From: Candidatus Parcubacteria bacterium
Lineage (GTDB): Bacteria; Patescibacteriota; Minisyncoccia; Phycocordibacterales; CAIZLB01
Direction of reading: 5' to 3'
Assembly (NCBI GenBank): GCA_039795775.1
Contig: JBDKLC010000005.1
Location: 89,905 to 153,904, forward strand
DNA: 64,000 nucleotides
Shown: positions 5,289 to 56,289 of the stretch, piece by piece
Numbering within the stretch: position 1 is the first letter of the stretch
Layout: every line of letters starts with the position of its first letter
The notes under the pieces: generated by a model
The model's input: only the letters and a program-made list of their open reading frames with translations
Told to the model about the DNA's origin: nothing
Databases searched by the model: none
Program-made: the position numbers and the translations under genes

Positions 5289-6746
5289 ATGAATATGAAT
5301 ATTACAAACACAATTTCAGGTAAAAAGCGAGCAGGATTCTTGGCTATCTGTGCGGTCCTCTTTGCTTTCACATTAATGGTAATTCCAGCACAGGTACAGG
5401 CCGGTGGAGACGAAGGTGACGACTACGATACAAGTGGCGTTAACTGGGGAAACTCAGACTACGATACAAGTGGTGTAAACTGGGGAAACTCAGATTACGA
5501 TACTAGTGGTGTAAACTGGGGTTCTAACGGATACAGTTCAGGTGGTGCATCTGATAGTGGTTCAAACTACTATACATATGATACTCCAACTTATAAGTAT
5601 TACTCACCATCATCATCTGGTTCAGGTTATACAAACTACTCGACACCTACATACAAGTACAATACTTCAAGAGGTAACGGTGGTAGTTTAGCTTCTGGTT
5701 ACACACCGATGACATATGTCCCTTACAATAGTAATAAAAATACTAATACACAGGGTCAGTCTTCAAGTAACAAGAATACAAACACAAACAATAACTCTAG
5801 TAAGTCTACTAGTGCGAGTACTGCAAGTGCGAACAACACAAACAATATTTCGAACACTAACAACAACCAGGACATTACGAACAACGTAAACAACAACAAC
5901 ATTAGTCTCGTTGTATACGCAGCTGGTGCTACATCAACTTACAGTAATGTGAGTGATAACAATCAGCAGCTCGATGGTTATTGTGTGATCAACCCTTCAA
6001 CAGCCGAAATAAACCAGGATCTTAACTTCATGGCTTATCCAAACGGTGGTAACGGTTCATACACATATAGTTGGTCAGGTACTGACGGTCTTACAAGTAC
6101 ATATCAGAACTTTACAGGACGATACGGTACAGCTGGATACAAAACAGCATACGTAACTATCCGATCTGGAAGTCAGATTGTAACAAAGACATGTAGTACA
6201 ACTATCGTACAGCGATATACACCTCCTACAGGTAACTCAATCAGTGCATACTGTGTTGCGACACCTTCATCAGTTGGTATCAACCAGACTGTGACATGGA
6301 ACGTATACGCTTCAGGTGGTAACGGTAACTACGGTTACTACTGGTCAGGTACAGACAGTCTCTTCGGATACTCTCAGTACATCCAGAAGTCATATAGTTA
6401 TGCTGGTACTAAACAAGCATCAGTTACAGTAACTTCAGGTGGTCAGTCAATTACAGCTACATGTAATGCTGATGTCACAGGAGGTTCAGTATCTAATGTA
6501 AATGTCTACCGACAGCCTACATCTGGTACACCAGTTTCAGGAGTATTCTTGAATCAGGTTCCAGACACAGGTATCAACTGGAGTTTGAAAACAACTCTCT
6601 TCGCGGCAGGTCTTCTTATGTGGAGTGCATTCGTAGCATACATGGTTATCGCTCGACGAAAGCAGTCTCTCGCACTTGCATCTGGTACTTCTAAGGAAGC
6701 AGCATTCAAGCTCGCAAACATGCAGAAGAAAGGTTTGATCTCATAA
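5289..6746 (+). CDS. cell-surface protein with C-terminal sortase sorting signal (VPDTG + TM + RRK)
   Basis: 485 aa. Signal peptide, then 3x DYDTSGVNWGNS repeats and an S/N/T-rich low-complexity region. Two roughly 80-aa repeated domains (YCV..P....INQ...GGNG.Y.Y.WSGTD). C-terminus reads LNQVPDTG followed by a hydrophobic helix and ARRKQ. Confidence 0.7.
   Translation: MNMNITNTISGKKRAGFLAICAVLFAFTLMVIPAQVQAGGDEGDDYDTSGVNWGNSDYDTSGVNWGNSDYDTSGVNWGSNGYSSGGASDSGSNYYTYDTPTYKYYSPSSSGSGYTNYSTPTYKYNTSRGNGGSLASGYTPMTYVPYNSNKNTNTQGQSSSNKNTNTNNNSSKSTSASTASANNTNNISNTNNNQDITNNVNNNNISLVVYAAGATSTYSNVSDNNQQLDGYCVINPSTAEINQDLNFMAYPNGGNGSYTYSWSGTDGLTSTYQNFTGRYGTAGYKTAYVTIRSGSQIVTKTCSTTIVQRYTPPTGNSISAYCVATPSSVGINQTVTWNVYASGGNGNYGYYWSGTDSLFGYSQYIQKSYSYAGTKQASVTVTSGGQSITATCNADVTGGSVSNVNVYRQPTSGTPVSGVFLNQVPDTGINWSLKTTLFAAGLLMWSAFVAYMVIARRKQSLALASGTSKEAAFKLANMQKKGLIS
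5421..5528 (+). repeat. 3 x 36-bp near-perfect tandem repeat inside CDS 5289..6746
   Basis: gactacgatacaagtggcgttaactggggaaactca repeated three times with a few substitutions. Encodes DYDTSGVNWGNS x3. Confidence 0.9.
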
Positions 6747-8690: not shown

Positions 8691-11600
8691 TTAGGCAAGA
8701 GGCTTGATGGCATCTGCCATAAAGCTTGGGTTACCGTCTCGAGATGAGGTCTTGCCCTTGATCACGACACATCGGTCTACCTGAAGGATGTTTTTGTATT
8801 GTTCGTATGCTTTTGGAAATACTACAACTTCGATTGAGCCACTAAAGTCAGCGAGCCGCATGAACATCATTCGCACAGTTGGATCTTTCTTTGTAGCGAT
8901 TTCTTTTGCTTCTTCAATGATACCGGCAAGCACAATCTGTTTGCCTTCGTCTCGTTTTGGTTTGCCTCGGAACTTTGGTTTGTTTGCAGATGGTTTTGGG
9001 GCTGCTGGCTTTGATGGGAATGGCTCGGCGTCTGGATCAATCATGCCACTTTCGACGGCTGGTGCGAGAATTGCTTCTTCACCTGCTTTCTTTTTGTCTT
9101 CTTCTTCGATTTGTAGTTTTACTTTTGCAATATTGAGTTCTCGTGTTTTAAAAATTTCAGCGTATTTGTCGAGTGGGTGACCAGATACAAAGAGGCCGAG
9201 GAGTTCTTTTTCCCATGCGAGCTTTTCTGCAGGTTGAGCATGTCCTTCTTCTTTGAGTTTGAGATGCATGCCGTATTTATTTTTTGCTTTAGCTAGTTGT
9301 GTCTCTTCAGATTCCATCGCTGCAAAAGCACCAAAGAGTGATGTTTGATTTTCTGCCTGTTTGTGCTGTTCTTTGTTGTATTCCAAAAGGTCAGGGAGGT
9401 TTGCAAGCATCACACCTCGGTCACCGTATTCATCCATGGCACCAGATTTAATGAGAGCTTCGAGAGATTTTTTGTTGAGATTTTTATCTTTGATTCGATT
9501 GAGGAATTCTTCGAGTGTTTTGAATCGGCCGTTCTTTTTCCGTTCTTCGATGATAGTGTCAGCAATACCTTCGCCGAAGTTTTTAATACTATAGAGACCG
9601 AATCGGATTTTGTCCGGTTCGATGTCACCCTTTGCATTCATGCCACCACCTTTGATAACAGTAAATGTTCCAAATGATTCGTTGAGGTCAGGAGGAAGTA
9701 CGGCAAGATTCATTCGCTTACATTCAGCAATGTATTCGCCGATTTCGACAACATCGCCGTGCGCACCTGTAAGAATCGCCGCCATATAAATAGCAGGGAA
9801 GTTTGCTTTCATGTACGCAGTTTTGTACGCCACGTTTCCGTAACTCGCAGCATGCGCTTTGTTGAAGCCGTATCCCTGGAATGGTTCGAACAATTTCCAA
9901 ATATCTTCAGCCAACTTTTTTGAAATACCTGAATGTGAAATACAACCATCTACGAACTTTACATGTTGCTTTGCCATTTCTTCTGGAATCTTTTTTCCTA
10001 CCGCTTTTCGGAATTTGTCTACTTCTCCCCATGTATATCCAGCGAGTTCGATGGCGGTCATAAGAAGGTCATCCTGATATACGAGAAGACCGTATGTTCG
10101 ATCGAGGAAGGCTTTCATCTTTGGATGATAGAAAATAGTTTTGTGCTTGCCGTGTTTTCGAGCGATGTATTCGTCGATCGTTTCCATTGGCCCAGGTCGA
10201 TAGAGCGCTACCATTACGTTGATATCGTGGATGGTTGTTGGTTTGAGTTGTTTGAGAGCTTGTGTGATACCAGATCCTGAAAGCTGGAATACACCCGTCG
10301 TATCACCACGTGCGAGCATTTCGAATGTCTTTTTGTCGTCGAGAGGAATGAGATCGATGTCGAGTTTGATACCCTCAATCTTTTCTGTGAGGTCGAGTGC
10401 ATCGGCAAGCTGTGCCAAGTTTTTGAGACCGAGGAAGTCGAATTTCAAAAGACCGGCGTTTTCTTCATCCACTGATCGCATGTCGTACTGAGTAATGATG
10501 CGGCCTTCGCCTTTTGGATCGAGCTGTAGCGGTACTACTTCTGTAATAGGAATAGGAGCAATCACCACACCGGCAGCGTGTACAGAAATGTGTCGTGCAC
10601 AACCTTCGATCTTTTTTGCCATTTCAATAATTTTTTTGACATCGGCATCTTTGTCATAAATTTCTTTGAGTTCTGGTGTGTCTGCCAACGCTCGTTCAAT
10701 TGTCATTGGAAAACCTTGCTGACCCATTGGGATAAGCTTTGAAATTTTGTCACCGAGTGTGTATGGATATTTGAGAGCTCGCGCCACGTCTTTTACGGCA
10801 CCTCTGGCAGCCATGGTTCCGAATGTACCGATTTGCGCTACTTTGTCCTGACCGTATTTTTGTCGAGAGTAGGTGATCATTTCGTCTCGTCGGTTATCGG
10901 CGAAGTCCATGTCGATGTCTGGCGCTGAAGGTCGTTCTGGGTTCAAGAATCGTTCGAAAGGAAGATTGAAGGCGATTGGGTCTACGTTTGTAATACCAGT
11001 GAGGTACGTCACAATAGAGCCGGCTACTGATCCTCGAATGTTTGTAAGGATGCCGTGGTCGTATGCATATCGAAGAAGGTCAGCTACTACGAGGAAGTAT
11101 GGAGCGTACCCTTTATCTTTAATAACTTTGAGTTCATACTCGATTCGCTCTTTTACGGTGGCGTCGAGTTCCATTCGTCGTCGCTCGAGACCTGCGTACG
11201 TAAGATTGCGAAGTTCGTCGTCGGCAGGGAGTCCACTTTCTACAACGTATTCAGGAAAGAGCCATTTACCAAGCTCGATCTGAAGATTTATTTTTTCTAC
11301 AATCTTCTGACAGTTATCGAGTGCGTCAGGTGTGTCTTTAAATAATTCTTCTGCGCGTTCACTGGTTATAAATGAAAGGTCGGCGTTGTCTTCGGATGTT
11401 CGTTCACTGAATTGATCTTGAATAGCGAGAAGTGTTTGTCGAGCTTCTTTGTCATCAGCTTTTATATAGTACACATCGTGACCTGCAACAATCTGAATGT
11501 TTTCTTCACGAGCAAACGCAATAAGCTTTTCCATGATACCTTCGTGCTCTTCAATTTCAGGATGATGAGTGATTTCAATATAAAAATCATCCTTAAAAAT

Positions 11601-12092
11601 GTTTTTATAGTACTGTGCTATTTCACGTGCTCGGTCTATATTGCCAGCTTTGATAGCTTGAGTAATCTCGCCACTAAATGAAGGCATTATACAGAGAAGT
11701 CCGGTTGGATATTTTTCTATAAGTTCACGGTCAATTCGTGGTTTGTAATAAAAACCTTCGAAGAATGAGTCAGTAACGAGTTTGATGAGACTCTTGTAGC
11801 CAGACGCATCTTTTGCCAAAAGAAGGAGTCGAGTTCGGCGGTTGTCGATGCGTGGTTCTTTGTCGTGGCGAGTTCGAGCAGCAACATAAAAATCTACGCC
11901 GAGGATTGGTTTGATGTTCTGTTTTATACATTCTTTGTAAAACTGAATGGCACCGTACATGTTGCCGTTGTCAGTGAGAGCGACAGCTGGCATAGCATTA
12001 TCAATCGCAGCTTTTACCAACGCTTTTATTTTTGGAAGCGCTTGAAGGAGGCTGTAATGGCTATGAGTGTGGAGATGGACGAATCGTGACAT
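8691..12092 (-). CDS. dnaE: DNA polymerase III alpha subunit
   Basis: 1133 aa. N-terminal PHP domain (FVHLHTHSHYSLL). Polymerase core, fingers and OB fold conserved along the full length. Confidence 0.95.
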   Translation of the reverse strand: MSRFVHLHTHSHYSLLQALPKIKALVKAAIDNAMPAVALTDNGNMYGAIQFYKECIKQNIKPILGVDFYVAARTRHDKEPRIDNRRTRLLLLAKDASGYKSLIKLVTDSFFEGFYYKPRIDRELIEKYPTGLLCIMPSFSGEITQAIKAGNIDRAREIAQYYKNIFKDDFYIEITHHPEIEEHEGIMEKLIAFAREENIQIVAGHDVYYIKADDKEARQTLLAIQDQFSERTSEDNADLSFITSERAEELFKDTPDALDNCQKIVEKINLQIELGKWLFPEYVVESGLPADDELRNLTYAGLERRRMELDATVKERIEYELKVIKDKGYAPYFLVVADLLRYAYDHGILTNIRGSVAGSIVTYLTGITNVDPIAFNLPFERFLNPERPSAPDIDMDFADNRRDEMITYSRQKYGQDKVAQIGTFGTMAARGAVKDVARALKYPYTLGDKISKLIPMGQQGFPMTIERALADTPELKEIYDKDADVKKIIEMAKKIEGCARHISVHAAGVVIAPIPITEVVPLQLDPKGEGRIITQYDMRSVDEENAGLLKFDFLGLKNLAQLADALDLTEKIEGIKLDIDLIPLDDKKTFEMLARGDTTGVFQLSGSGITQALKQLKPTTIHDINVMVALYRPGPMETIDEYIARKHGKHKTIFYHPKMKAFLDRTYGLLVYQDDLLMTAIELAGYTWGEVDKFRKAVGKKIPEEMAKQHVKFVDGCISHSGISKKLAEDIWKLFEPFQGYGFNKAHAASYGNVAYKTAYMKANFPAIYMAAILTGAHGDVVEIGEYIAECKRMNLAVLPPDLNESFGTFTVIKGGGMNAKGDIEPDKIRFGLYSIKNFGEGIADTIIEERKKNGRFKTLEEFLNRIKDKNLNKKSLEALIKSGAMDEYGDRGVMLANLPDLLEYNKEQHKQAENQTSLFGAFAAMESEETQLAKAKNKYGMHLKLKEEGHAQPAEKLAWEKELLGLFVSGHPLDKYAEIFKTRELNIAKVKLQIEEEDKKKAGEEAILAPAVESGMIDPDAEPFPSKPAAPKPSANKPKFRGKPKRDEGKQIVLAGIIEEAKEIATKKDPTVRMMFMRLADFSGSIEVVVFPKAYEQYKNILQVDRCVVIKGKTSSRDGNPSFMADAIKPLA

Positions 12093-12965: not shown

Positions 12966-13706
12966 ATGTCTAGAATTACGAATGTCACAGCTGTTGCTGG
13001 AGATCAACTCAAAACTGTCGAACAACTCACCGCGCTGCATCCACTTGTGGAACATCCCAAAGGTTTCGAATCGAAATACAAGGTCCGCGTTGCTCGCCGA
13101 AAGGAAAACGGCCGACCAAATTTCATCACGTCGCCGCAAGCCGACCAGCCAACTCACGAACCTATCTATGACTGGTATCGGACGCTGGTTATCCTGCGTT
13201 CCGAAAAAGTTCATAGCAAAGGGGACACGAAGGTTCCTAAACTCGTGCATCTCAAACCAGTGGAGGACAGCAATCCGTTGCTTTACCTGCCGAACTTCTA
13301 CACCGAAGGTGTCCGGAACTCGGAGGTGAGCGAAAGCGTAGCCTATATCCAAGCGAAGCTCCACATTATACCGGGCCTTGTGGAACTGGTGAAAGACCTC
13401 ACCTTCAAGGGTGAAGAGAGTTTGCGCGTCGCAGCTATGGTGGCTCAGAATTTCTCGGGCCGGGTAGCCAGCGGTGCGCATGTGAAGTTGATGGAACATT
13501 CCTATACTCTTCAGTTTGAACCTCTGACCAAGGAACTCATCGCCGGTTTCAACATCGTCGATCTCGACGTTCTCTTGTCCGTCGTCACACATCTCGCCAA
13601 ACATCCGGATTACAAAACGCCTTTCCGGGGGCTCAAGACTGCCATTGCGGCCGCCAAAAAAGTGCGCGCTGGTGAAGCGCGCTCTACTACAAAGGCGGCC
13701 GCCTAA
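12966..13706 (+). CDS. hypothetical protein in GC-rich segment (strand assignment tentative)
   Basis: 246-aa ORF. A 232-aa ORF overlaps on the opposite strand. Plus strand preferred because the strong terminator at 13733-13776 is plus-oriented. Confidence 0.4.
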   Translation: MSRITNVTAVAGDQLKTVEQLTALHPLVEHPKGFESKYKVRVARRKENGRPNFITSPQADQPTHEPIYDWYRTLVILRSEKVHSKGDTKVPKLVHLKPVEDSNPLLYLPNFYTEGVRNSEVSESVAYIQAKLHIIPGLVELVKDLTFKGEESLRVAAMVAQNFSGRVASGAHVKLMEHSYTLQFEPLTKELIAGFNIVDLDVLLSVVTHLAKHPDYKTPFRGLKTAIAAAKKVRAGEARSTTKAAA

Positions 13707-23706: not shown

Positions 23707-23984
23707 GGGCTCAGACTAGGGTTGATTTCAATAAAGGAATGTCAACAGGGTTAATTTGACACCTGTGGATAATTCGTTTACTATGTGGTTCTGCGATAAC
23801 GATTGAGTTTATGGCTGACTCATCGCGGAATTTCTCATCTTTGATCTTTGGTTACCCGCCAAAGACCAATACCCGGGTAAGCTACAGATAGCCTTTTACA
23901 ACCTTAGAAATAAGGACGGGCATCTGTCGGCTTCACAATTGAATGATTATAAATTTATAAGTGTATTAAGACGCACCCAGCATT

Positions 23985-26900
23985 ATGATGCGCCCAAAAA
24001 AAACGTTTTCGCGATTCAAGGAGCCGCTCGCGCCGCTTCCAAACTTGGTAGAAGGTCAGTTACTTTCATATAAATGGTTACTAGAACAAGGTATTAATGA
24101 TGTCTTTAAGGAATTTGCAGCCGTTACAGACTATTCAGGCAAAAAATTTGAACTTGAATTCGTAAGCTTCCAGCTCGACAAGTCAAAGCACGACGAGTAT
24201 TACGCAAAAGAAAATAAGATGAACTTCGAAGCACCTCTCAAGGTGATGGTTCGTCTTAAGAATAAAATTATGGGCAGTGTGAAGGAACAAGAAATCTTCA
24301 TGGCCGATTTCCCTTTGATGACAGATCATGGGACTTTTATCATTAACGGTATCGAACGACTTATCGTTCCTCAGCTCGCACGATCATACGGTGTATTCTT
24401 TACAGCGTCTGAAACAAAGGGCCGAAATTACTTTGGAGCAAAAATCATTCCAGCACGAGGTGCATGGATTGAACTCGAAAGTGATGCTGATGGTGCTATA
24501 TATGTACGAATCGATCGAAAGCGAAAATTCGCTGTTTCATCTCTCCTCCGGGTATTCGGTACTACAACTGATTCAGAAATCAAGGCTCTTTTCAAAGATA
24601 ATGAAGAAGCTAAGATGTGGATCGACACAACTCTTGCAAAAGACCACGCGAAGACAGTAGAAGATTCATATATTGAAATCTACAAACGACTTCGAGATGG
24701 TGACCTTGCTACAGCTGAAAACGCAAAAGAAGAAGTAGACAAACTCATGAGTAAGGATCGATATGACCTTTCAAAGGTAGGACGATTCCGATTCAATCAG
24801 CGATTTGAAAAGGGTATGGACGAACAAGATCTCGTTCGAATGACTCTATCTATTGATGACCTCAAGACTATTATTGAACACATCATCAAGCTCAATAATC
24901 ACCCAGAAGCTCTTATCGACGACGTTGACCACATGGGTTCACGACGAGTGAAGTATGTAGGTGAACTTCTTCAGCAGAAGATTCGACTTGGTATGACTCA
25001 GATCCGACGAAACATTCAGAACCGAATGTCTACTATCGATACTGATGCAACTCTCCCTGTACAGTTCATTGTTCCTCGACCTCTCCAGGCTCGAATCAAA
25101 GAATTCTTTACAACAAACCAGTTGTCACAGTTCATGAGTCAGGAAAACATCTTGGCTGAAATCGAACATCTTCGAACAATTACAGCTCTTGGTTCTGGAG
25201 GTCTTACACGAGAACGAGCTGGTATTGAAGTTCGAGACGTTCACCCTTCACACTACGGCCGAGCTTGTCCTATTCACACACCAGAAGGTCAAAACATTGG
25301 TCTCGTACTTCACCTTGCGACATACGCTCGAATCAACCACTTCGGTATGATCGAAACTCCGTATGCAAAAGTGAAGAACGGAAAGATCACAAAAGAAATC
25401 GTATATTTGAACGCACTCGAAGAAGAAGGCTTCAAAATTGCGCACGCTGCGACTCCTTATGATGCAGACGGAAAGATTTCTGAAAAACAGGTAGAAGTTC
25501 GAATCAAAGGACGACCAGTACTTGTACCACTCGAAGAAGTAGACTACATCGACGTTGCTACAGAACAGGCGTTCTCTATTTCAACATCTATGATTCCGTT
25601 CTTGAACCACGACGATGCCAACCGAGCGCTCATGGGATCAAACATGCAGAAGCAGGCTACACCTTGTATCATTCCTGAAGCTCCATTTGTTGCTACAGGT
25701 ATTGAAGAAAAGGCGGCTCAAGATACAGGGCGAATCATCATTGCTCCTGAAGACGGTACTATCGTTGCAGTAGATGCACGAGAAATCACTCTTAAGGGTA
25801 AGAAGGATCACAAGTTCCGACTCGTTAGTTTCAATAGAACAAACCAATTTACTGCATTCCATCAGCGACCTCTCGTTGAATTGAATCAGAAAGTAAAACG
25901 AGGTGATGTTCTCGCGGACACATCTACATCTGAAAACGGTCAGATGGCTCTTGGACAGAACGTTCTTGTAGCATTCATGACTTGGTCAGGTGCAAACTAT
26001 GAAGATGCCATCATCGTATCTGAACGACTTGTAAAAGAATCTAAATTTACATCAATCCACATCGAAGAAATCGTTGTGAATGTTCGAGATACAAAACTAG
26101 GGCCTGAAGTTACAACTCACGACATTCCAAACGTTGGTGAAAACCGACTCAAGAATCTCGACGTAGACGGTATCGTTCGAGTAGGTGCTGAAGTACGACC
26201 TGGCGATATTCTCGTAGGTAAAATTACTCCAAAATCTGAAACTCAGCTCACTCCAGAAGAACGACTTCTCCGATCTATCTTCGGTGAAAAATCACGAGAT
26301 GTAAAAGATACATCAAAGCGACTCGAAAACGGTAAACGAGGACGAGTTATTGGTGTAAAAATCTTCTCACGAGAAAAGGGTGACAAACTCGAATCTGGAA
26401 TCATCAAACGAATCCACATCGAAGTTGCACTTCTCCGAAATCTTTCAGTGGGTGACAAACTTGCTGGACGACACGGTAACAAGGGTGTTATCTCACGAGT
26501 ACTCCCAGTAGAAGATATGCCATACATGGCTGACGGAACACCTATCGACGTGATCCTTACACCTCTTGGTGTACCATCTCGAATGAACCTCGGTCAGATT
26601 CTCGAACTCCACCTCGGTCTCGCAGCTTCAAAGCTCGGCTACCAGGCGATTGTTCCTCCATTTACAGGTGCAACAGCTGAAGAAGTAAAAGCTGAACTTG
26701 TAAAAGCAGGCTTCAACGAAAACGGAAAGATGAAACTCTTCGACGGACGAACGGGTGAACAATACAACCAGGACATTGCGGTTGGATACATGTACATCTT
26801 GAAACTTCACCACATGGTTGAAGACAAGATCCACATGCGATCAATTGGTCCGTACTCTCTCATTACACAGCAGCCACTTGGAGGTAAAGCTCAAGGTGGA

Positions 26901-38980: not shown

Positions 38981-39033
38981 TATGTTTTGTGTACAAAGTA
39001 AAAAGTAGGAAACTTTCACACTTTTAGATATAA

Positions 39034-42593: not shown

Positions 42594-43667
42594 TTGTATA
42601 ACTTATGCATGAAAGAAGTAGAAGATGTCGCCGTATTTACACAAAATATTTTAAAAGAAGCACATGCACGTAAAGCTTCAGATATACATATTGATCCAAC
42701 GATTGACTCGATATTAATTCGATTTCGGATAGACGGAGTATTGAGGGAAGTATACAAAGTAAAAAGTAGGAATATTTCGGAAATTGTTGGACATATCAAG
42801 ATACTGTCTGGTTTGCGAATAGATGTACATGATAGAGCGCAAGATGGGCGCTTATTCTTACTGGTAGGCGAGACTCAAATTGATGTCCGAGTTTCAATCG
42901 TGCCGACCTTTTATGGAGAAAATATAGTTTTTCGTATTCTTGATCAACAGGTTAATAAAGATTTAAGTTTCGACGATTTAGGAATAGACGAATCTCAGCA
43001 ATCAGTTATTAATGAAAAAGTTTTTAAATCACAGGGTCTTATTTTAGTAGCAGGACCAACTGGTTCTGGAAAAACAACAACGCTGTATTCATTTATACAA
43101 AAGATTGCCAAGAGAGATCTGTGTGTCATTACCCTTGAAGATCCAATTGAATATTCAATACCTGGAATAAGACAAGTTCATGTAAGGCAAGAACGTGGCT
43201 TTACGTTTGCAAATGCTCTCAAAAGTATTTTGAGACAAGACCCTGATGTTGTCATGGTGGGAGAGATTCGTGACAAAGAAACAGCTCAAATTGTTATACA
43301 TACTGCTCTTACGGGTCATCTTGTTTTATCAACAATTCATGCGTCATCAGCGAGTGCTGTTATTTTAAGGTTATCAGAAATGGGGCTTGAGCCTTATCTT
43401 GTTGCAGCAACTCTTAGTCTTGTAATAAGTCAGAGACTAGCGAGAAAAATTGCAGAGTCAGGAGGTTATGCTGGGAGATTGGGCATTTTCGAAGTGGTAG
43501 GTATTAACGAAAAACTCAGAGAACTAATCATAAAGAATGTCTCTTCTGATGATTTAAAAAGAGAGATCGAGAGACAAGGTATTTTAAGTCTACTTCAAGA
43601 CGGGATAAAAAAAGTTGATCAAGGAAAGACATCATTAGAAGAATTGAAACGAGTCCTATATGAATAA
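42594..43667 (+). CDS. type IV pilus/type II secretion assembly ATPase (PilB/GspE family, N1 domain absent)
   Basis: 357 aa. ASDIHIDP..ILIRFRIDGVL N2 motif, Walker A LVAGPTGSGKTTT and Walker B VVMVGEIRD. Terminal ...TSLEELKRVL. Confidence 0.85.
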   Translation: MYNLCMKEVEDVAVFTQNILKEAHARKASDIHIDPTIDSILIRFRIDGVLREVYKVKSRNISEIVGHIKILSGLRIDVHDRAQDGRLFLLVGETQIDVRVSIVPTFYGENIVFRILDQQVNKDLSFDDLGIDESQQSVINEKVFKSQGLILVAGPTGSGKTTTLYSFIQKIAKRDLCVITLEDPIEYSIPGIRQVHVRQERGFTFANALKSILRQDPDVVMVGEIRDKETAQIVIHTALTGHLVLSTIHASSASAVILRLSEMGLEPYLVAATLSLVISQRLARKIAESGGYAGRLGIFEVVGINEKLRELIIKNVSSDDLKREIERQGILSLLQDGIKKVDQGKTSLEELKRVLYE

Positions 43668-46393: not shown

Positions 46394-46969
46394 ATGTACA
46401 CGTACAACGACCATTCAGCCTCAGGACTCGGTGCAAAAAAAGCTCATGCTGGAAATGAAGGTGCTATTTCTGAGCAGATGCGATTGCAGCACATCAAAGA
46501 AGAACGTGAACGACAAGAAAAACAGCGAGCACGACAAGAGCTCTCAGACAAGAAGCGCCAGTATGACCTTCACAAAGAAGATATCCGACGGCGAGAAATT
46601 GACTTCCGGCGTGTAGAACAGGAGTTCGCTCATACAGAGCAAATGATTCATGAGTTCGAGCGAGACACAAAACAGAAGGAAGACAAAGTGCAACAAAAGA
46701 AATCACAAGTGCACGAGATGGGAGTCCAAATTCAGAAGTTGCAGCTCGAATTACAACAACTCAAAAATGCTCAGTTGAAAGAATCTGGTACACTGACGCA
46801 CCTCGAAGCAGAGCTCACCTACGCTGTACGAGAAAAAGAAAAGAAGACAGCAGGCTTCCAAGAAATGGAAACAAAAAAGAAACGACAATCATTCGAAATG
46901 GAACGAGTACGAGGAGAAATGGTTCGACTCGAACAAGAAATGAAACATCTCGAAATGAAAGCACGGTAA
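46394..46969 (+). CDS. hypothetical coiled-coil protein
   Basis: 191 aa. Highly charged E/K/R/Q-rich heptad-like sequence. Confidence 0.5.
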   Translation: MYTYNDHSASGLGAKKAHAGNEGAISEQMRLQHIKEERERQEKQRARQELSDKKRQYDLHKEDIRRREIDFRRVEQEFAHTEQMIHEFERDTKQKEDKVQQKKSQVHEMGVQIQKLQLELQQLKNAQLKESGTLTHLEAELTYAVREKEKKTAGFQEMETKKKRQSFEMERVRGEMVRLEQEMKHLEMKAR

Positions 46970-46997
46970 AAGTAGGAATCTTTCCTACTTTTTACTT
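46966..46997. terminator. bidirectional terminator, member of recurring AGTAGGAA...TTCCTACT motif
   Basis: GTAAAAGTAGGAA-tct-TTCCTACTTTTTACTTT between convergent genes 46394..46969(+) and gpmI(-). Confidence 0.7.
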
Positions 46998-48506
46998 TAT
47001 AAGACTTTGACCTGTCATTCCGTCAGGCTTCGCCACACCAAGCAAGTCAAACACAGTTGGAGCGATGTCTGCGAGTGAACCACTGTCTTTCAATGTGAGC
47101 CCTGATGAAGATGTCACAATTGCTGGTACTGGGTTGATTGTATGAGCTGTATGCTTTTTACCAGTTTCCAAATCTACGTTTACTTCGGCATTACCGTGGT
47201 CGGCTGTGACAAAGGCGATACCATCTCGTGCAACCAATGCGTCGATCACTCGACCAAGCTGAAGGTCTACTTCTTCTACAGCTTCGATAATAGCTGGCAC
47301 ATTTGCTGTATGACCTACCATATCCGGGTTTGCAAAGTTGATAAAAATAAAGTTTGTGCCTTTTTCAATTTGCTCGATAGCTTTGTCGGCGATGGCGTCA
47401 GCTCGCATTTTTGGTGCAAGGTCGTGAGTCGCAACATCTTTTCGACTTGCGAGCATGATGTGTTCTTCGCCTTCGTGAGGAAGCTCGACACCACCATTCA
47501 AGAAATATGTAGCGTGAGGAAACTTTTCTGTTTCTGCAATGTGCGCCTGTGTAAGACCTGCGTGAGAAATTTCTTTGGCGAGAGTTGTTTCGATTTGGAT
47601 AGTAGGGAAGGCGACGAGCGTATCAAATTCAGATCCATATGATGTCTGCGTTGCAAAACATACATTGTCTGTCTTTGAGAGGTCAATCATTTTTTTCGAA
47701 AGCATTCGGGCTCTGTCTGCTCGGAAGTTGAAGAAGAATACAGAATCATTTGATTGAATTTTGCATCCCTGACCCATAGGTGTTTTCATGACGATAGGTT
47801 CGAGGTGTTCGTCGAGTTTGCCATCTTTGTACAAATCTTCGATAAAAGTTGAAGGGGGAACTTCACAAATATGTCCTTCACAGTTGAAGAGCGCTTGTTC
47901 TACTTTTGCCAATCGATCCCAGTTGTTGTCTCGATCCATAGCAAAGAATCGTCCTGACACTGTAGCGATAAAGCCTACATCAATTTCTTGGAGAAGTGCT
48001 TCGAGGTCTTTCAAATAGGCTGCAGCACTTTGTGGAGGTGTATCTCGTCCGTCAGTGAAAATATGAATAGCAACTTTTGTGATGCCAGCTTTCTTTGCGG
48101 CTTTAATAAATTCGAAGAGATGCTCTGAATGTGAGTGCACACCACCGTCACCAAGAAGACCCATGACATGAAGCATAGAGTCATGTTTTTTTACATGATC
48201 AAAGAGGGCATGGTACGCTGGATTTTTTTCGTATTCGCCCGTATCAATCGCTTTCTTAATTCGTACGAGGTCTGTGTCGATAGCTTTTCCTGCGCCGATT
48301 GTAGTATGGCCAATTTCACTGTTTCCCATTTGTCCTTCGGGAAGACCTACAGCAAGACCACTCGCTTCGAGGAGTGTGTGAGGATACTGATTCCATAATC
48401 GATCAAAGTTTGGGGTTTTGGCTGCTGAAATGGCATTGTGAGTTGCGTCTTCACGGTAGCCCCAGCCATCGAGGACTATCAAGACTGATTGTTTGGTGTG
48501 CGTCAT
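46992..48506 (-). CDS. gpmI: 2,3-bisphosphoglycerate-independent phosphoglycerate mutase
   Basis: LIVLDGWGYREDATHNAISAAKTPNFDRL...SEIGHTTIGAG. The track ORF extends to 48572; the conserved start is at 48506. Confidence 0.9.
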   Translation of the reverse strand: MTHTKQSVLIVLDGWGYREDATHNAISAAKTPNFDRLWNQYPHTLLEASGLAVGLPEGQMGNSEIGHTTIGAGKAIDTDLVRIKKAIDTGEYEKNPAYHALFDHVKKHDSMLHVMGLLGDGGVHSHSEHLFEFIKAAKKAGITKVAIHIFTDGRDTPPQSAAAYLKDLEALLQEIDVGFIATVSGRFFAMDRDNNWDRLAKVEQALFNCEGHICEVPPSTFIEDLYKDGKLDEHLEPIVMKTPMGQGCKIQSNDSVFFFNFRADRARMLSKKMIDLSKTDNVCFATQTSYGSEFDTLVAFPTIQIETTLAKEISHAGLTQAHIAETEKFPHATYFLNGGVELPHEGEEHIMLASRKDVATHDLAPKMRADAIADKAIEQIEKGTNFIFINFANPDMVGHTANVPAIIEAVEEVDLQLGRVIDALVARDGIAFVTADHGNAEVNVDLETGKKHTAHTINPVPAIVTSSSGLTLKDSGSLADIAPTVFDLLGVAKPDGMTGQSLIK

Positions 48507-48710: not shown

Positions 48711-49184
48711 ATGAAAATCACACCATTCACTATGCGCGGCAATGCCGCACATCTCTTTCAATCGCGAGCGGTTGTCGGAGAAACCATGGAACTCACCATG
48801 TCCGAAGCACAGCGCCGAGAAATCGGCTTCACAGGCCTGACCGTTTACCCAGGCGCGGTGACGGGCACAGTCCTCGCACATCTGCGTCATGGAGGAGGCA
48901 CCCTCGGAGGATGCGCACTCGGCTTCCACGAGTTCGTGGTCGAAATCCACGCAAATGGACACAAGATCTATGCCATCGGCAGTTACGATAATCACGCTGA
49001 CGAACCCGGCGGCAAACTCAGTGTCGTCAACCGCACATGGAAGGGTTCCCTTGAATTCGACCAATCTCGCGAACTGATGAATCTGTTGCGGGCAGAACTC
49101 AAGCTGGCCCTCATACCGCTTGCAAAAAAAGTTCCTGTGCCGACCAATGTGGTCGAATCGGAGCGAACTTCAGCGGCAGCCTAG
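48711..49184 (+). CDS. hypothetical protein (GC-rich segment; strand tentative)
   Basis: 157-aa ORF. Overlapping ORFs on the opposite strand. Plus strand favoured by the downstream plus-oriented terminator. Confidence 0.35.
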   Translation: MKITPFTMRGNAAHLFQSRAVVGETMELTMSEAQRREIGFTGLTVYPGAVTGTVLAHLRHGGGTLGGCALGFHEFVVEIHANGHKIYAIGSYDNHADEPGGKLSVVNRTWKGSLEFDQSRELMNLLRAELKLALIPLAKKVPVPTNVVESERTSAAA

Positions 49185-51747: not shown

Positions 51748-52896
51748 ATGATTAATCTCGGGTTTTGGCAAGGGCTTAAGGAAAAAGCCGACAAGCAAGG
51801 TCGGCCTCTTTTTGTATTGGCACCTATGGCCGATGTGACAGATGCGGCATTTCGAAAAGTCATTGCTACATATGGAAAGCCAGACGTGACATGGACCGAG
51901 TTCGTTTCTGCCGATGGTCTCATGCGCGCGCATCCTGAAGGAAAGATGAAACTTCTCCGAGATCTTTTGTATTCAGACAAAGCTCCCAGTGATGAACGAC
52001 CAATCGTTGCGCAGCTTTTCAGTGCTCGACCCGAATATATGAAGGGTGCGGTGAAGCTTGTCGCTGAACTTGGATACGACGGTATCGACATCAACATGGG
52101 TTGTCCTGATAAAAGTATTGAAAAGCAAGGATGTGGAGCAGCCATGATGAAAAATCCTGAAGCTGCGCAGGCGGTAATCCGTGCAGCAAAAGAAGGTGCC
52201 GAAGAAGCGTGGAATGAAATGAAAGAAAAGGGGACGTTACCACCGAATCAGACTGCGGGACCTATTCCTGTATCTGTAAAAACTCGAATCGGTTACAACA
52301 AAAATGAATTGGCAACATGGTTGCCTGCAATTCTCGAAGCTGAACCTGCTGTGGTGACGATTCATTGTCGAACTCGAAAAGAAATGTCGAAGGTAGCAGC
52401 ACGATGGGAACATATAGAAGAAGCAAAAAAAATCAGAGATGAATTTTTCATAAAAAAAGAATCAACAGGTGAATATAAAAAAGGCGACCCACTGCCGCTC
52501 ATTCTCGGAAACGGTGATGCTGTGTCTATTTCCGATGCAGTCAGTCGAGCAACAACACACAACGCAGACGGTGTAATGCTTGGACGAGCAATCTTCGGTA
52601 ACCCGTGGCTCTTTAAAGGAATCAACGAGCACGATTTTAAACATGACCCAACTGGATACAAACAGTACGAACCTTCAGTATCAGAAAAGTTGAAGGTGAT
52701 GGTGGAACACACAAAACTCTTTGAAGAATTGCTCGGTGATATAAAAAGTTTCGCAATTATGAAAAAACACTACAAAGCGTATGTGAATAATTTTGATGGA
52801 GCAAAAGAACTTCGGGAAGAACTCATGAATGCAGCAAATGCTGGGGAAGTAGAGCAAAAAATTGAGGATTTTTTGATGAAAAGTTCATCTTTCTAA
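51748..52896 (+). CDS. dus: tRNA-dihydrouridine synthase
   Basis: 382 aa. LFVLAPMADVTDAAFRKV FMN-binding TIM-barrel N-terminus, and a catalytic Cys region (GCP). Confidence 0.85.
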   Translation: MINLGFWQGLKEKADKQGRPLFVLAPMADVTDAAFRKVIATYGKPDVTWTEFVSADGLMRAHPEGKMKLLRDLLYSDKAPSDERPIVAQLFSARPEYMKGAVKLVAELGYDGIDINMGCPDKSIEKQGCGAAMMKNPEAAQAVIRAAKEGAEEAWNEMKEKGTLPPNQTAGPIPVSVKTRIGYNKNELATWLPAILEAEPAVVTIHCRTRKEMSKVAARWEHIEEAKKIRDEFFIKKESTGEYKKGDPLPLILGNGDAVSISDAVSRATTHNADGVMLGRAIFGNPWLFKGINEHDFKHDPTGYKQYEPSVSEKLKVMVEHTKLFEELLGDIKSFAIMKKHYKAYVNNFDGAKELREELMNAANAGEVEQKIEDFLMKSSSF

Positions 52897-53076
52897 CTAG
52901 GAGAGGCTAGCATGTGGTGTGTTTGACATTACAGCTATCTGTGGTAATATTATATACGTCAGAGGTGAACCCTTTGATTCTTGATTGGCAACGCCGATCG
53001 AGAAATAACCCTTGCTCTAGCAACATCAGTGGAGTAAGGACACAAAGCACAAAGCCCTAAGGAGGGGCATTCAGTC

Positions 53077-53220
53077 ATGAAGATCCATCTGCACTTGAAG
53101 AGCGAAAACTCGAACATTGTTGATTCCATGCTGCCGGCCGCGCGCCGCGACACCAAACATTATTCCGGCCGCGCCGGAGACGTGGTGCTCGCCGACGCTA
53201 CCGCCAGTCCCTTTGCGTGA
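53077..53220 (+). CDS. 47-codon sORF with strong Shine-Dalgarno (AAGGAGGGG-N8-ATG), function unknown
   Basis: MKIHLHLKSENSNIVDSMLPAARRDTKHYSGRAGDVVLADATASPFA. Its 3' half lies in a roughly 65% GC structured segment. Confidence 0.25.
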   Translation: MKIHLHLKSENSNIVDSMLPAARRDTKHYSGRAGDVVLADATASPFA

Positions 53221-53495
53221 TCATCCGCCGCGGCCCATTGCCCCGGAAGGTGAAAACCGGGGCAACGCCGCACCAGCGAATGGTGCACGCGGGAGACCTC
53301 AGGGTCTCCCAGAGTAGCATGCAACAAGTCGTCAACTCGCGTTGAACTGTTGCAGCACTCACCTGGTTGAGTAGTTTGAACGATTCATATGTTCTCAATA
53401 GGTACAAGCGAAGCTTTGCCGAAGGGAAATCATCGACGCTCTATAGTCCGCACTTCAGTGTCAATCGTCAAATCATACTTGACCCCAACACCCGC

Positions 53496-53533
53496 CTCGG
53501 GCGCACCTGTGCGCCCGAGCCGGAACTTTTTTT
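53496..53533 (+). terminator. hairpin + T-run closing the structured GC-rich segment
   Basis: CTCGGGCGCA-cctg-TGCGCCCGAG, then CCGGAAC and TTTTTTT. Confidence 0.55.
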
Positions 53534-53722
53534 ATATAAAATTTATATAAATTACATATTATTTTGAATAAGATTTTCATTTACAAACTGGCAAAAGTAT
53601 CCTGTAACGTTTTCCACACACTAAAGAGCCTTTTTTAAACGTATACTCAATTCATTACTAATGGTAAGAGACCTGTACCACGTGCAACGAGGGAATGGGG
53701 TTAGACATAATAAGAAAAAAGA

Positions 53723-54172
53723 ATGACAAATATTGCATCAAAAGACCTTACAAAGGTGGCACCACGAAGTGCGTATGAAACTATCAACGGATTCGCTATT
53801 CTCGCACGAGCAATAGACAAGGGACGAGCTACAATCGCTGGTACAAACGGCGATTATAACTTCGACTGTCCAGTTGATAACATGATTCTCAATTTCGTTG
53901 GTATCAAGGGAGAAGAACTTCGAGCAAAACTTGAAGCTGGTGCGACAGACGAAGAGATCGGAACATGGGTGAAGGAAGCATCAAAAAAGTCTGATGAAGA
54001 AATCAAGGCTTGGTCAGAAAGTTTCAAGTCAGATTTTTCATATGCTCACCATCCAGATGCAGGAAAGCAGGCATGGTTCCGAGGTGAATGTGAACGACTT
54101 GGTCTCAATGCAGACACAACAACTCTCTTTGATTATCTCGATGTAGATGACAAAGCAACATTCGCAAACTAG
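53723..54172 (+). CDS. hypothetical protein
   Basis: 149-aa ORF followed by two tandem terminator hairpins. Confidence 0.6.
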   Translation: MTNIASKDLTKVAPRSAYETINGFAILARAIDKGRATIAGTNGDYNFDCPVDNMILNFVGIKGEELRAKLEAGATDEEIGTWVKEASKKSDEEIKAWSESFKSDFSYAHHPDAGKQAWFRGECERLGLNADTTTLFDYLDVDDKATFAN

Positions 54173-54255: not shown

Positions 54256-54279
54256 GTAGGAAAGATTCCTACTTTTTAC
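54256..54279 (+). terminator. second hairpin, recurring AGTAGGAA...TTCCTACT motif
   Basis: GTAGGAA-aga-TTCCTACTTTTTAC. Nearly identical to the 46971-46996 hairpin. Confidence 0.6.
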
Positions 54280-54598
54280 TTGTATGCATTTATATATATA
54301 GATGCATATATTTATTTATTTTTAAAAAAACTTGACACGTGTTTACATGTCGATTAAGATGTTACTCCCTCGAGCAAAGCAGTTTTCACAAACCGCTCCT
54401 CAGGGAAGAGTGAACCACAGGTTCACACAAGTTCTTTTCAAGGTTAGTCGTCTAGACAAATCGGTAGGAATGGAGCAAACAAGCTCCACAACAATTTTCA
54501 GAATTTCAAACAATTCCTCCCCCGACAAAAAACTGTCTCACCCTAACCCTAGCCGCAAGGCACCCCAGGCTCGCAAGAGCACCCCCGTAACAAACGGA

Positions 54599-54640
54599 GG
54601 GCCGTCGTTGCAACACGTGACGACGGCCCTTTCCTTTCTC
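54599..54640 (+). terminator. strong hairpin + T-rich tract just upstream of dnaX
   Basis: GGGCCGTCGT-tgcaacacgtg-ACGACGGCCC followed by TTTCCTTTCTC. Confidence 0.5.
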
Positions 54641-54680
54641 GGGGTTTTTGGGCTTTAGTTCATCTGTTATACTAAGTGCA

Positions 54681-55833: not shown

Positions 55834-56289
55834 CTATTCCCGGAAGGGGTCGCTTTCCAAAGTCCGGAAGACGATTTGGATGACTGCCCCGGTCTTGTTG
55901 TGGCGATACATCTCCGCTGTGGTGTCGGCGGTGCTGACGGAGAATTCCCCGAGATGGGTGAATTCACCTGACAGGCGGATGTGTTCGCAGAGTTTGGCGT
56001 GGGCCGCAACGCTTTGGACCCGAAAGCCTTCGTGCTGCGGAATGTGACTGCGGACGATCTCGAAACGCACGTGACGCAAATTGGGATTTTGCATGAAGAT
56101 CGTGTGCGCCGGGCCCGTTTCGCTGTCTTTGCCGACTTTTACTTCTTCCCAACAGAGCTGTTTGAAGAGATTGGCTTTTTCTTGGACGGTTTCTCCGATG
56201 ATGATCGGAATGGCCGTGTGTTCGTGGTGGTATGCCACTTGAGCTCCTGATAGGAGATTCAAAACGACAGAGTTGATGGGTGTTTTCAT
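55834..56289 (-). CDS. hypothetical protein, possible cupin-like metal-binding fold (GC-rich)
   Basis: About 151 aa from MKTPINS... GAQVAYHHEHTAIPIIIGE loosely fits G-x5-HxH-x-E of cupin motif 1. Competing ORFs on the opposite strand. Confidence 0.35.
   Translation of the reverse strand: MKTPINSVVLNLLSGAQVAYHHEHTAIPIIIGETVQEKANLFKQLCWEEVKVGKDSETGPAHTIFMQNPNLRHVRFEIVRSHIPQHEGFRVQSVAAHAKLCEHIRLSGEFTHLGEFSVSTADTTAEMYRHNKTGAVIQIVFRTLESDPFRE

What the first reader, a model, noticed from the sequence alone, without database searches (positions are those of the whole stretch)
53077..53545. RBS-preceded 47-codon sORF running into a roughly 65% GC, highly structured non-coding segment (candidate ncRNA or leader)
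The 825-bp gap between dus and the next gene is unusually long for this compact genome. It holds a textbook SD (AAGGAGGGG) 8 nt before an ATG that opens a 47-codon ORF. Immediately after comes a GC-rich tract dense in perfect hairpins: GGGAGACC-tca-GGGTCTCCC, GCCCCGG-aaggtgaaaa-CCGGGGC, GCAACA...TGTTGC with a nested CAAC...GTTG, and CTCGGGCGCA-cctg-TGCGCCCGAG followed by a T-run. There are short matches to RNase P RNA-like strings (AGGUGAAA...GCACCAGCGAAUGG, GCAACAAGUC), but no P4 core, so the identity is unresolved. It could be a leader-peptide attenuator, a riboswitch-like element or a structured sRNA.
Basis: seen in the sequence. Interest (0 to 1): 0.5.

Follow-up and report, generated by a model that had tools for sequence, protein, structure and literature searches.

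The report
Orphan small-ORF cassette in Paceibacteria
The long gap after the dus gene holds a self-contained mini-gene found only in this one lineage of a tiny uncultured bacterium: it has its own promoter and terminator, would make a tightly folded RNA of about 575 bases, and carries one or two very small GC-rich reading frames, so it is neither a known RNA nor a regulator of the next gene.

Summary
The described sequence is real. There is an 826-nt gap, AAGGAGGGG 9 nt before an ATG, a 47-codon ORF, 63-68% GC in a 42% GC window, and all four hairpins.

It is not RNase P RNA, tmRNA, SRP RNA, 6S RNA or a riboswitch: Rfam and ARAGORN found nothing. It is not a leader of the next gene either. A strong terminator comes first, followed by that gene's own conserved promoter region, and the closest syntenic relative lacks the whole ~680-nt segment.

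It reads as an autonomous unit: a near-consensus promoter at 52923, a ~575-nt RNA (folding z about -8) and a terminator at 53496. The SD is an outlier, because 0 of 38 long ORFs here have one.

The GC-rich tract looks coding rather than non-coding. The sORF has GC1/2/3 of .60/.45/.74 (p=0.002). A second 42-codon ORF, overlapping its stop as GTGA, has .64/.48/.79. The periodicity ends where the GC island ends.

No homolog was found in proteins, metagenomes, viruses or relatives, so no covariation test is possible. Other Paceibacteria carry unrelated cassettes of the same design in the dus-dnaX slot.

Best reading: an orphan, moron-like small-ORF cassette, possibly a dual-function RNA. Moderate interest.

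The parts
52923..52950 (+). sigma-70-type promoter: TTGACA (52923-52928), 16-nt spacer, TG, TAATAT (52945-52950). The predicted transcription start is near 52957.
   Evidence: 10 of 12 matches, extended -10. In one search, 10 of the 13 site calls of this strength (12 distinct positions; the 52923 site is called at two spacings) fall in the 15% of the window that is intergenic. This promoter and the one at 54332 are the only ones with no annotated gene downstream.
52958..53039 (+). 5' leader with three stable hairpins: 52958-52978, 52979-53003 and 53010-53039.
   Evidence: MFE and pair probabilities of 0.8-0.99. A leader of about 120 nt is unusual in a genome whose genes are mostly leaderless.
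53054..53068 (+). Small hairpin GCCCU-AAGGA-GGGGC that holds the Shine-Dalgarno-like AAGGAGGGG (53059-53067) in its loop and 3' arm.
   Evidence: mean unpaired probability of the SD 0.53. SD motifs precede 0 of 38 long ORFs in the window and 20 of 365 in related Paceibacteria loci.
53077..53220 (+). sORF1, 47 codons: MKIHLHLKSENSNIVDSMLPAARRDTKHYSGRAGDVVLADATASPFA.
   Evidence: GC1/2/3 is .60/.45/.74 with permutation p=0.002, while host genes have GC3 of .33-.36. JGI and NCBI both call it a gene. It has no homolog. The AlphaFold2 model is disordered, pLDDT 55.
53217..53345 (+). sORF2, 42 codons, with a GTG start overlapping the TGA stop of sORF1 (GTGA): VIIRRGPLPRKVKTGATPHQRMVHAGDLRVSQSSMQQVVNSR. 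It covers the 'perfect hairpin' tract. It is either a coupled second ORF or the shifted continuation of one ~89-codon ORF.
   Evidence: GC1/2/3 is .64/.48/.79 with p=0.0016. The phase of maximal GC switches near 53215, and the periodicity stops at 53345, where the GC island ends. There are no homologs and no Pfam match. The GTGA overlap is weak evidence on its own, because any TGA stop gives an NTG codon in that frame.
53238..53354 (+). Cluster of GC-rich hairpins inside and at the end of sORF2: 53238-53265, 53270-53286, 53291-53310 and 53320-53354. The last one spans the sORF2 stop codon.
   Evidence: (z=-4.1). A covariance model of 53209-53362 finds only itself in 35 sources.
53346..53495 (+). 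3' untranslated part, 45-50% GC with no codon periodicity. Its upstream portion (53361-53461) pairs locally and, at long range, back to the start of sORF1 (53091-53100 with 53453-53461). It ends in a C/A-rich, mostly single-stranded stretch (53483-53495).
53496..53533 (+). Intrinsic terminator: a 10-bp GC stem with loop CCUG, then CCGGAAC and T7. The stem becomes 14 bp if base 53495 is G, as it is in four short-read contigs.
   Evidence: Short-read contigs break within or just upstream of this hairpin.

Best explanation
Window 52923-53533 (+) is an autonomous accessory gene cassette specific to this lineage. It sits in a variable slot between the housekeeping genes dus and DUF5069/dnaX of a Paceibacteria (Patescibacteria) genome.

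Proposed mechanism:
- A host-type promoter drives an RNA of about 575 nt that ends at a strong intrinsic terminator.
- The RNA has a leader of about 120 nt with three hairpins.
- A Shine-Dalgarno site follows, partly held in a small hairpin.
- Then comes a GC3-rich coding core of one or two tiny ORFs (47 and 42 codons, GTGA overlap).
- A structured 3' UTR of about 150 nt completes the transcript.

Because this organism otherwise starts translation without SD sequences, mostly on leaderless mRNAs, the SD is what lets ribosomes enter an ORF buried inside a long folded RNA. The heavy folding probably stabilises the transcript and throttles translation.

The product is most likely a small, disordered or basic peptide, or a pair of them. 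The RNA may also act as a regulator in its own right (a dual-function RNA).

The atypical composition and the absence of the element from the nearest relatives point to recent acquisition or fast turnover, in the manner of a phage 'moron'.

What is shown: the sequence anatomy, the in-silico promoter and terminator, the excess of structure, the codon periodicity, the absence from relatives, and the absence of any known family.
What is inferred: transcription, translation, function and origin.
For: - Promoter and terminator.
- Structure: z is -8.4 to -9.2 with local shuffles, against -0.1 to -1.3 for coding controls.
- SD: it is an outlier in an SD-less genome.
- Codon-position GC periodicity: present in sORF1 (p=0.002) and in sORF2 (p=0.0016). 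It starts and stops with the ORFs and with the GC island.
- Insertion relative to L085: dus-141 bp-DUF5069. Only 53575-53659 is conserved there.
- Variable slot: dus->dnaX synteny holds in 72 of 88 loci, with spacing from 0 to 2.7 kb.
- Cassettes of the same design but unrelated sequence occur in L082 and L076. Each has a promoter, an SD, a GC3-rich sORF of 44-51 codons (GC3 .84-.94, p<=0.0007), a structured tail (z -3.6 to -4.6) and a terminator.
- The design is about 16-fold enriched in the slot: 4 hits in 81 kb against 3 in 984 kb.
Against: - There is no expression data.
- No homolog exists anywhere: 5.8 billion protein clusters, 1.84 billion representatives, a metagenome 18-mer scan, four viral scans, phage and plasmid BLAST, and 84 related loci.
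- The three datasets that carry the element agree through 53446; the only differences are a few bases at the contig ends in and just before the terminator hairpin (53481-53512). So neither covariation nor dN/dS can be tested.
- The peptides of the look-alike cassettes are not detectably related, so the 'class' is only architectural.
- Two short ORFs in different frames with the same periodicity is also what a frameshifted pseudogene looks like.
- The peptide is predicted to be disordered.
- Dense perfect hairpins inside a coding region are unusual.
Confidence: 0.45

Rival explanations
1. A decaying piece of foreign, GC-rich DNA: a frameshifted or truncated gene with its downstream hairpins, captured in a recombination-prone slot and now without function.
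For: - The sequence is an orphan with deviant composition.
- Two ORFs in different frames show identical codon-position profiles, with the phase switching at 53215.
- Other GC-rich orphan ORFs are scattered between core genes in the same window and are absent from L085.
- The C-terminus of sORF1 gives a short match to PPC-domain repeats.
- The slot is hypervariable among the closest relatives.
Against: - Its promoter is as good as real gene promoters of this genome, and its terminator is perfect.
- Its folding z of -8 is far beyond that of GC-rich coding DNA in the same genome, which gives -0.1 to -1.3.
- The same design recurs in other genomes.
- The PPC-like match does not extend into sORF2, the Pfam PPC model does not match, and one 30-bit hit is expected by chance in 1.84 billion proteins.
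Confidence: 0.25
2. A purely non-coding, trans-acting or scaffold RNA of about 575 nt. The AGGAGG and AUG are then incidental or structural, for example an anti-SD decoy or part of a hairpin.
For: - The excess of structure is stronger on the + strand.
- GC-rich islands in AT-rich genomes are typical of structured RNAs.
- A C-rich single-stranded stretch lies just before the terminator, here and in the look-alike units.
- The neighbouring unit at 54332-54645 is a promoter-to-terminator RNA without a credible ORF.
Against: - Three-base GC periodicity confined to the two ORFs is not expected of a non-coding RNA.
- SD plus a start codon recurs in the look-alike cassettes, although only about 5% of genes in these genomes have an SD.
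- No family, no homolog and no covariation were found.
Confidence: 0.2
3. A type I toxin-antitoxin-like locus: a small toxic peptide encoded on a highly folded, translationally silenced mRNA.
For: - A small ORF sits inside a long, very stable mRNA with a partly sequestered SD.
- Such loci are lineage-specific, fast-evolving and intergenic, and they often occur in tandem. L076 has four mini units.
Against: - Neither peptide has a hydrophobic or transmembrane segment (seen directly in the sequence).
- There is no convincing antisense promoter inside the unit. The only minus-strand site, a 9-of-12 match at 53586-53558, lies outside it in AT-rich spacer.
- There is no padloc, Pfam or PHROG evidence. 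Pfam and PHROGs were searched; padloc was not run.
Confidence: 0.05
4. A cis-acting leader, leader-peptide attenuator or riboswitch that controls the downstream DUF5069 gene, or a divergent housekeeping RNA (RNase P RNA, tmRNA, SRP RNA or 6S RNA).
For: The element lies upstream of a gene. An SD-led short ORF is followed by hairpins and a terminator.
Against: - Rfam gives nothing at gathering score or at E<=10, and ARAGORN finds no tmRNA.
- The terminator is 276 nt from the stop codon.
- About 190 nt of spacer follows the terminator, and it contains the promoter region that is conserved with L085.
- L085 and most relatives lack the element.
Confidence: 0.04

Closest known systems
Phage 'morons' (Hendrix-type accretion cassettes: promoter + small ORF + intrinsic terminator inserted between genes that are adjacent in relatives)
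   Same: It has its own sigma-70 promoter and its own factor-independent terminator. It lies between genes that are adjacent in a relative (L085). Its base composition differs from that of its neighbours. It is a small orphan ORF.
   Different: It sits in a bacterial chromosome between housekeeping genes, not in a phage or prophage (no phage or PHROG matches). The ORFs are far smaller than usual, and the transcript is mostly structured RNA.
Dual-function sRNAs such as Staphylococcus aureus RNAIII (514 nt, hld) and E. coli SgrS/SgrT
   Same: It is a long, highly folded RNA with a short SD-led ORF in its 5' half and a structured 3' domain with C-rich unpaired segments before the terminator.
   Different: There is no sequence or structural homology. 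No targets are known. There is no conservation even among close relatives. This is an analogy of design only.
Type I toxin mRNAs (hok, ldr, tisB, fst)
   Same: A small ORF is embedded in a very stable mRNA with limited SD access. Such loci are lineage-specific intergenic units, sometimes in tandem.
   Different: The peptides are hydrophilic or basic and lack a membrane helix. No antisense RNA gene was detected.
Structured ncRNAs found as GC-rich intergenic islands in AT-rich genomes (GC-IGR approach; families such as OLE, ROOL, GOLLD, raiA)
   Same: It is a GC-rich, strongly folded island in a long intergenic gap.
   Different: It matches none of the 4227 Rfam families. The GC excess sits at third codon positions of ORFs. 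No homologs exist to support a conserved fold.

Membership tests
Bacterial RNase P RNA (Rfam RF00010/RF00011 and relatives) | Match to the covariance model, including the P4 core (CR-I/CR-V) | tested here: not met
   cmscan finds nothing at gathering score over the whole window, and nothing at E<=10 on 52850-53750.
tmRNA | tRNA-like domain (acceptor and T arm) flanking a tag reading frame | tested here: not met
   ARAGORN finds only tRNA-Gln in the window. There is no Rfam tmRNA hit. The 3' end is an intrinsic terminator, not a T arm with CCA.
SRP RNA, 6S RNA, riboswitches, ribozymes, group I/II introns | Match to any curated covariance model | tested here: not met
   Only chance-level hits to unrelated families appear at E 0.9-8. 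The same holds for look-alike units in ten related loci.
Leader-peptide transcription attenuator | The terminator, with an alternative antiterminator, lies directly downstream of the leader ORF | tested here: not met
   There are 276 nt of independently folded RNA between the stop (53220) and the terminator (53496).
Leader-peptide transcription attenuator | The regulated gene lies in the same transcription unit, and the element is conserved together with it | tested here: not met
   The promoter region of the DUF5069 gene (53575-53659) lies after the terminator and is conserved in L085. L085 has the gene (85% identity) but not the element.
Moron-like accretion cassette | Own promoter and own intrinsic terminator | tested here: met
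   (in silico only).
Moron-like accretion cassette | Lies between genes that are adjacent in relatives, with deviant composition | tested here: met
   In L085 dus and DUF5069 are 141 bp apart. GC is 0.63-0.68 against 0.417 for the window, and GC3 is .74-.79 against about .35.
Moron-like accretion cassette | Resides in a phage or prophage genome | tested here: not met
   The neighbours are enolase, dus, DUF5069 and dnaX. There is no phage DNA or PHROG match.
Dual-function sRNA | The small ORF is translated | tested here: inconclusive
   An SD lies at 9 nt, and coding-type GC periodicity gives p=0.002. No ribosome or peptide data are available.
Dual-function sRNA | The RNA base-pairs with target mRNAs | not testable with these tools
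   Only 64 kb of the genome is available, and there is no expression or interaction data.
Type I toxin-antitoxin | Hydrophobic membrane-spanning peptide shorter than 60 aa | tested here: not met
   Neither sORF1 nor sORF2 has a run of about 18 hydrophobic residues. The AlphaFold2 model is disordered.
Type I toxin-antitoxin | Overlapping or adjacent antisense RNA gene | tested here: inconclusive
   There is no promoter-like site on the minus strand within 52957-53533. One weak site (9 of 12) lies at 53586-53558 in AT-rich spacer.
PPC domain (Pfam PF04151) | Match to the domain profile over its length | tested here: not met
   There is no Pfam hit for sORF1, sORF2 or their fusion. Only 26-31 residues resemble the start of P0123/P0124 repeats, and sORF2 does not continue the match.

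The most novel reading that the evidence does not exclude
The dus-dnaX slot of Paceibacteria may be a nursery for a previously undescribed class of fast-evolving mini transcription units. Each has a consensus promoter, an SD (in genomes that otherwise hardly use SD), a GC3-rich ORF of about 45-50 codons, a strongly folded tail and a terminator, and the units are sometimes arrayed in tandem (four in L076). The window's element would be one member. These would be 'cellular morons' or dual-function RNAs that serve the accessory or symbiotic biology of ultra-small bacteria.
Probability: 0.2. Interest if true: 0.6.

Novelty: new member of a known kind. Interest (0 to 1): 0.38.

Why it matters
If the unit is expressed, a genome of about 0.5-1 Mb that is otherwise stripped to essentials still maintains or acquires tiny accessory genes embedded in elaborate RNA. 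It would also show that such a genome uses SD-led initiation specifically for them, while its housekeeping genes are leaderless. The recurrence of unrelated cassettes of the same design at one chromosomal slot across Paceibacteria would give a concrete place to study gene gain, small-protein birth and RNA-level control in the Candidate Phyla Radiation. There is a practical lesson too: a GC-rich, hairpin-rich island in an AT-rich genome is not automatically a non-coding RNA, and codon-position GC should be checked first.

Tried and rejected
- **Known RNA families.** Rfam at gathering score on the whole window and at E<=10 on the gap, plus ARAGORN, found no RNase P RNA, tmRNA, SRP RNA, 6S RNA, riboswitch, intron or ribozyme. 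Ten related loci gave nothing either.
- **Alternative genetic code (UGA read-through).** The sORF frame has only TGA stops up to 53549. However, enolase, dus and the other genes are full-length under table 11, so this was rejected.
- **Homologs by DNA.** I tried phage and plasmid BLAST, nhmmer against 84 dus loci and the four closest relatives, a metagenome 18-mer scan that gave 41 chance hits, four viral scans, tblastx and a single-sequence covariance model. Nothing was found.
- **Homologs by protein.** sORF1 found only itself. The fused sORF1+2 found nothing. Pfam and PHROGs gave nothing.
- **PPC-domain pseudogene idea.** The HMMER E-values of 6e-7 and 5e-4 come from the same ~28 residues matching four tandem repeats. 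A single copy scores about 30 bits, which is expected by chance in 1.84 billion proteins. The match also fails to continue into sORF2.
- **Repeat or mobile element.** There is no second copy and no terminal repeats in the window.
- **Assembly chimera.** The short-read contigs that carry this locus all end in the element's 3' part: two assemblies of one sample break inside the terminator hairpin, and the dus-side contig of a second sample ends 50 nt upstream at 53446. However, the dus-side and DUF5069-side contigs of one sample overlap by 35 nt, and the synteny matches L085.
- **Peptide family among look-alike cassettes.** No significant similarity was found.

Full report
**The observation**

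The window is 41.7% GC. The gap between dus (51748..52896, Pfam Dus) and the next gene (53723..54172, DUF5069) is 826 nt, the longest real gap in the 64 kb. AAGGAGGGG lies at 53059-53067, 9 nt before an ATG that opens a 47-codon ORF (53077..53220). GC reaches 0.63-0.68 across 53081-53360, the strongest GC island in the window.

The folding excess is real. The z-score is -8.5 on the + strand and -3.8 on the - strand. With dinucleotide shuffles confined to 50- or 100-nt blocks, which keeps the local GC, it is -8.4 to -9.2 on + and -4.5 on -. Stretches of about 475-575 nt from dus and from two GC-rich orphan ORFs in the same window give -0.1 to -1.3. In 150-nt windows the four consecutive + strand values are -2.4, -1.8, -3.0 and -5.4, against a window-wide mean of -0.4 (sd 1.4). 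The signal is therefore spread over the whole unit rather than carried by one extraordinary hairpin.

**What it is not**

Rfam at gathering score finds only tRNA-Gln in the window. At E<=10 on 52850-53750 it gives only chance hits to unrelated families. ARAGORN finds no tmRNA. The RNase P-like strings therefore carry no weight.

It is not a leader or attenuator of the DUF5069 gene, for three reasons:
- The terminator is 276 nt beyond the stop codon.
- About 190 nt of AT-rich spacer follows the terminator.
- Within that spacer, 53575-53659 aligns with the region upstream of DUF5069 in the closest syntenic relative, L085 (Dus 74% identical, DUF5069 85%). There dus and DUF5069 are only 141 bp apart.

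Relative to L085, about 680 nt (52897 to about 53575) is an insertion.

**The organism and its habits**

Dus relatives place the window in Patescibacteria/Paceibacteria (best species-representative match 64%, 'Ca. Taylorbacteria'). The sORF product exists in NCBI as a hypothetical protein of a 'Candidatus Parcubacteria bacterium' MAG on a 509-kb contig.

In this genome SD sequences are essentially unused. None of 38 long ORFs in the window has one, and only 20 of 365 do in 84 related loci. Many genes have their -10 box 8-10 nt before the ATG, which means leaderless mRNAs.

Strong sigma-70-type sites (at least 10 of 12 matches) behave as real signals here. The scan made 13 site calls at 12 distinct positions (the RNA1 site at 52923 is called at two spacings), and 10 of the calls lie in the 15% of the window that is intergenic. 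The promoter at 52923-52950 (TTGACA-16-TG-TAATAT) is one of only two with no annotated gene behind it.

The unit thus has a host-type promoter, an unusually long and hairpin-rich leader, and an SD that stands out against the genome. That is what an ORF buried inside a long folded RNA would need in order to be translated.

**The GC-rich tract looks coding**

- sORF1 has GC1/2/3 of .60/.45/.74, with permutation p=0.002. Host genes have .56/.40/.35.
- A second ORF, sORF2 (53217..53345, 42 codons), has its GTG start overlapping the TGA of sORF1. It shows the same profile, .64/.48/.79, with p=0.0016.
- In a sliding analysis the phase of maximal GC switches at about 53215. The periodicity disappears after 53345, exactly where the GC island ends.

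So the '65% GC structured non-coding segment' is covered by two small reading frames with a GC3-rich codon pattern foreign to this genome. These are either two coupled micro-ORFs or one ~89-codon ORF split by a frameshift. The GTGA overlap does not discriminate between the two, because a TGA stop automatically creates an NTG codon in that frame.

The hairpins lie inside sORF2 and across its stop codon. Two readings fit the high GC3: third positions may have been recruited for RNA stability, or the DNA came from a GC-rich donor. I cannot separate these.

**No relatives anywhere**

- sORF1 finds only itself among 5.8 billion protein clusters.
- HMMER against 1.84 billion representatives adds three repeat proteins. 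Their E-values come from the same ~28 residues matching tandem PPC-domain repeats. A single copy scores about 30 bits, which is expected by chance at this database size. Pfam PPC does not match. The independent test, whether sORF2 continues the domain, is negative.
- The fused ORF finds nothing.
- DNA searches of phages, plasmids, viral contigs, a metagenome 18-mer scan, 84 dus loci and the four closest relatives find nothing, and neither does a covariance model of the hairpin cluster.
- Contigs from two JGI samples and one Logan assembly agree with the window through 53446. The only differences are a few bases at the contig ends in and just before the terminator hairpin (53481-53512).

Covariation or dN/dS tests are therefore impossible with public data.

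**Context: a variable slot with look-alike cassettes**

dus is followed by dnaX in 72 of 88 Paceibacteria loci. The spacing ranges from zero (11 loci) to 2.7 kb, and the slot is often much more GC-rich than the genome. The nearest relatives carry different, unrelated sequences after dus (L087 at 79% Dus identity and L086 at 73%), or none (L085).

L082 and L076 carry units of the same design:
- a TTGACA-16-TATATT promoter,
- AGGAGG 4-6 nt before the start codon,
- sORFs of 44, 47 and 51 codons with GC3 of .84-.94 (p<=0.0007),
- a folded tail (z -3.6 to -4.6),
- and a terminator.

L076 has four promoter-to-terminator mini units in a row.

A rule-based scan finds this design four times in 81 kb of slot sequence, against three weak cases in 984 kb elsewhere. 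In the 64-kb window, on both strands, it finds only the element under study. The peptides and the RNAs of these units share no detectable similarity. The resemblance is architectural, not homology.

**Interpretation**

The best-supported reading (about 0.45) is an autonomous, lineage-specific accessory cassette: an mRNA of about 575 nt, possibly a dual-function RNA, for one or two tiny peptides, strongly folded and SD-dependent. It was acquired or is turning over in a hypervariable slot, in the manner of a phage moron.

The main rivals are:
- a functionless, frameshifted remnant of foreign DNA (0.25). The good promoter and terminator, the extreme folding and the recurrence of the design argue against it;
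- a purely non-coding RNA (0.2). The ORF-confined periodicity and the recurrent SD plus start codon argue against it.

Type I toxin, leader or attenuator, and divergent housekeeping RNA are unlikely. Function remains inferred. Transcript mapping, peptide detection and read-level SNP patterns would decide.

**Assembly caveat**

Short-read assemblies of this population do not span the 3' end of the element. In one sample, two assemblies break inside the terminator hairpin (53475-53511), and the dus-side contig of a second sample ends 50 nt upstream at 53446. Four short-read contigs from that one sample read G at 53495 where the window has C, and G would lengthen the stem to 14 bp. The 35-nt overlap between the two JGI contigs, together with the synteny of L085, supports the join shown in the window.

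Noticed in passing
window 54332-54645 (+): A second promoter-to-terminator unit lies just upstream of dnaX: TTGACA-17-TAAGAT at 54332-54360, an RNA of about 280 nt (z=-6.9), C-rich segments and a 14-bp terminator stem. It has no Rfam match and no credible SD-led ORF, and it is absent from relative L085. It could be an sRNA or a dnaX leader.
   Followed up: partly
whole window; e.g. starts at 4539, 5289, 8691-12092(-), 36035, 46394, 61376: The genome essentially lacks Shine-Dalgarno sites (0 of 38 long ORFs). Many genes have a TATAAT-like box ending 8-10 nt before the ATG, which implies widespread leaderless mRNAs. Only 5% of long ORFs in 84 related Paceibacteria loci have an SD.
   Followed up: partly
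window 12966-13706 (+), 48711-49184 (+), 55834-56289 (-): These are orphan ORFs with GC3 of .58-.66, against about .35 for housekeeping genes. They have no Pfam or PHROG family or phage match, and those tested are absent from the syntenic relative L085. They appear to be compositionally foreign accessory genes interleaved with core genes.
   Followed up: partly
window 53475-53511: Two short-read assemblies of one sample break inside the terminator hairpin, with discordant bases at their ends. At 53495 four contigs read G where the window reads C. The dus-side contig of a second sample ends earlier, at 53446. This points to a coverage drop or to population heterogeneity at a GC hairpin.
   Followed up: partly
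L076 3965-5334; L082 3957-4890; L072 4040-4800: Other Paceibacteria carry arrays of small promoter-to-terminator units (four in L076) between dus and dnaX. Several have SD-led, extremely GC3-rich ORFs of 40-59 codons. None matches Rfam, and none resembles the others in sequence.
   Followed up: partly
window 38992-39026, 42750-42778, 46953-47001, 54256-54291: A near-identical hairpin, AAAAGTAGGAA..TTCCTACTTTTT, recurs at the ends of several genes. It looks like a shared bidirectional terminator motif.
   Followed up: no
window 23756-23984 (+): A strong promoter (TTGACA-17-TACTAT) lies about 200 nt upstream of the 1063-aa gene at 23985. This leaves a long leader in an otherwise leaderless genome, possibly a regulatory 5' UTR.
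   Followed up: no
window 5421-5528: Three tandem 36-nt (12-codon) repeats lie inside the ORF 5289..6746. A related pair of repeats lies at 6045/6315.
   Followed up: no
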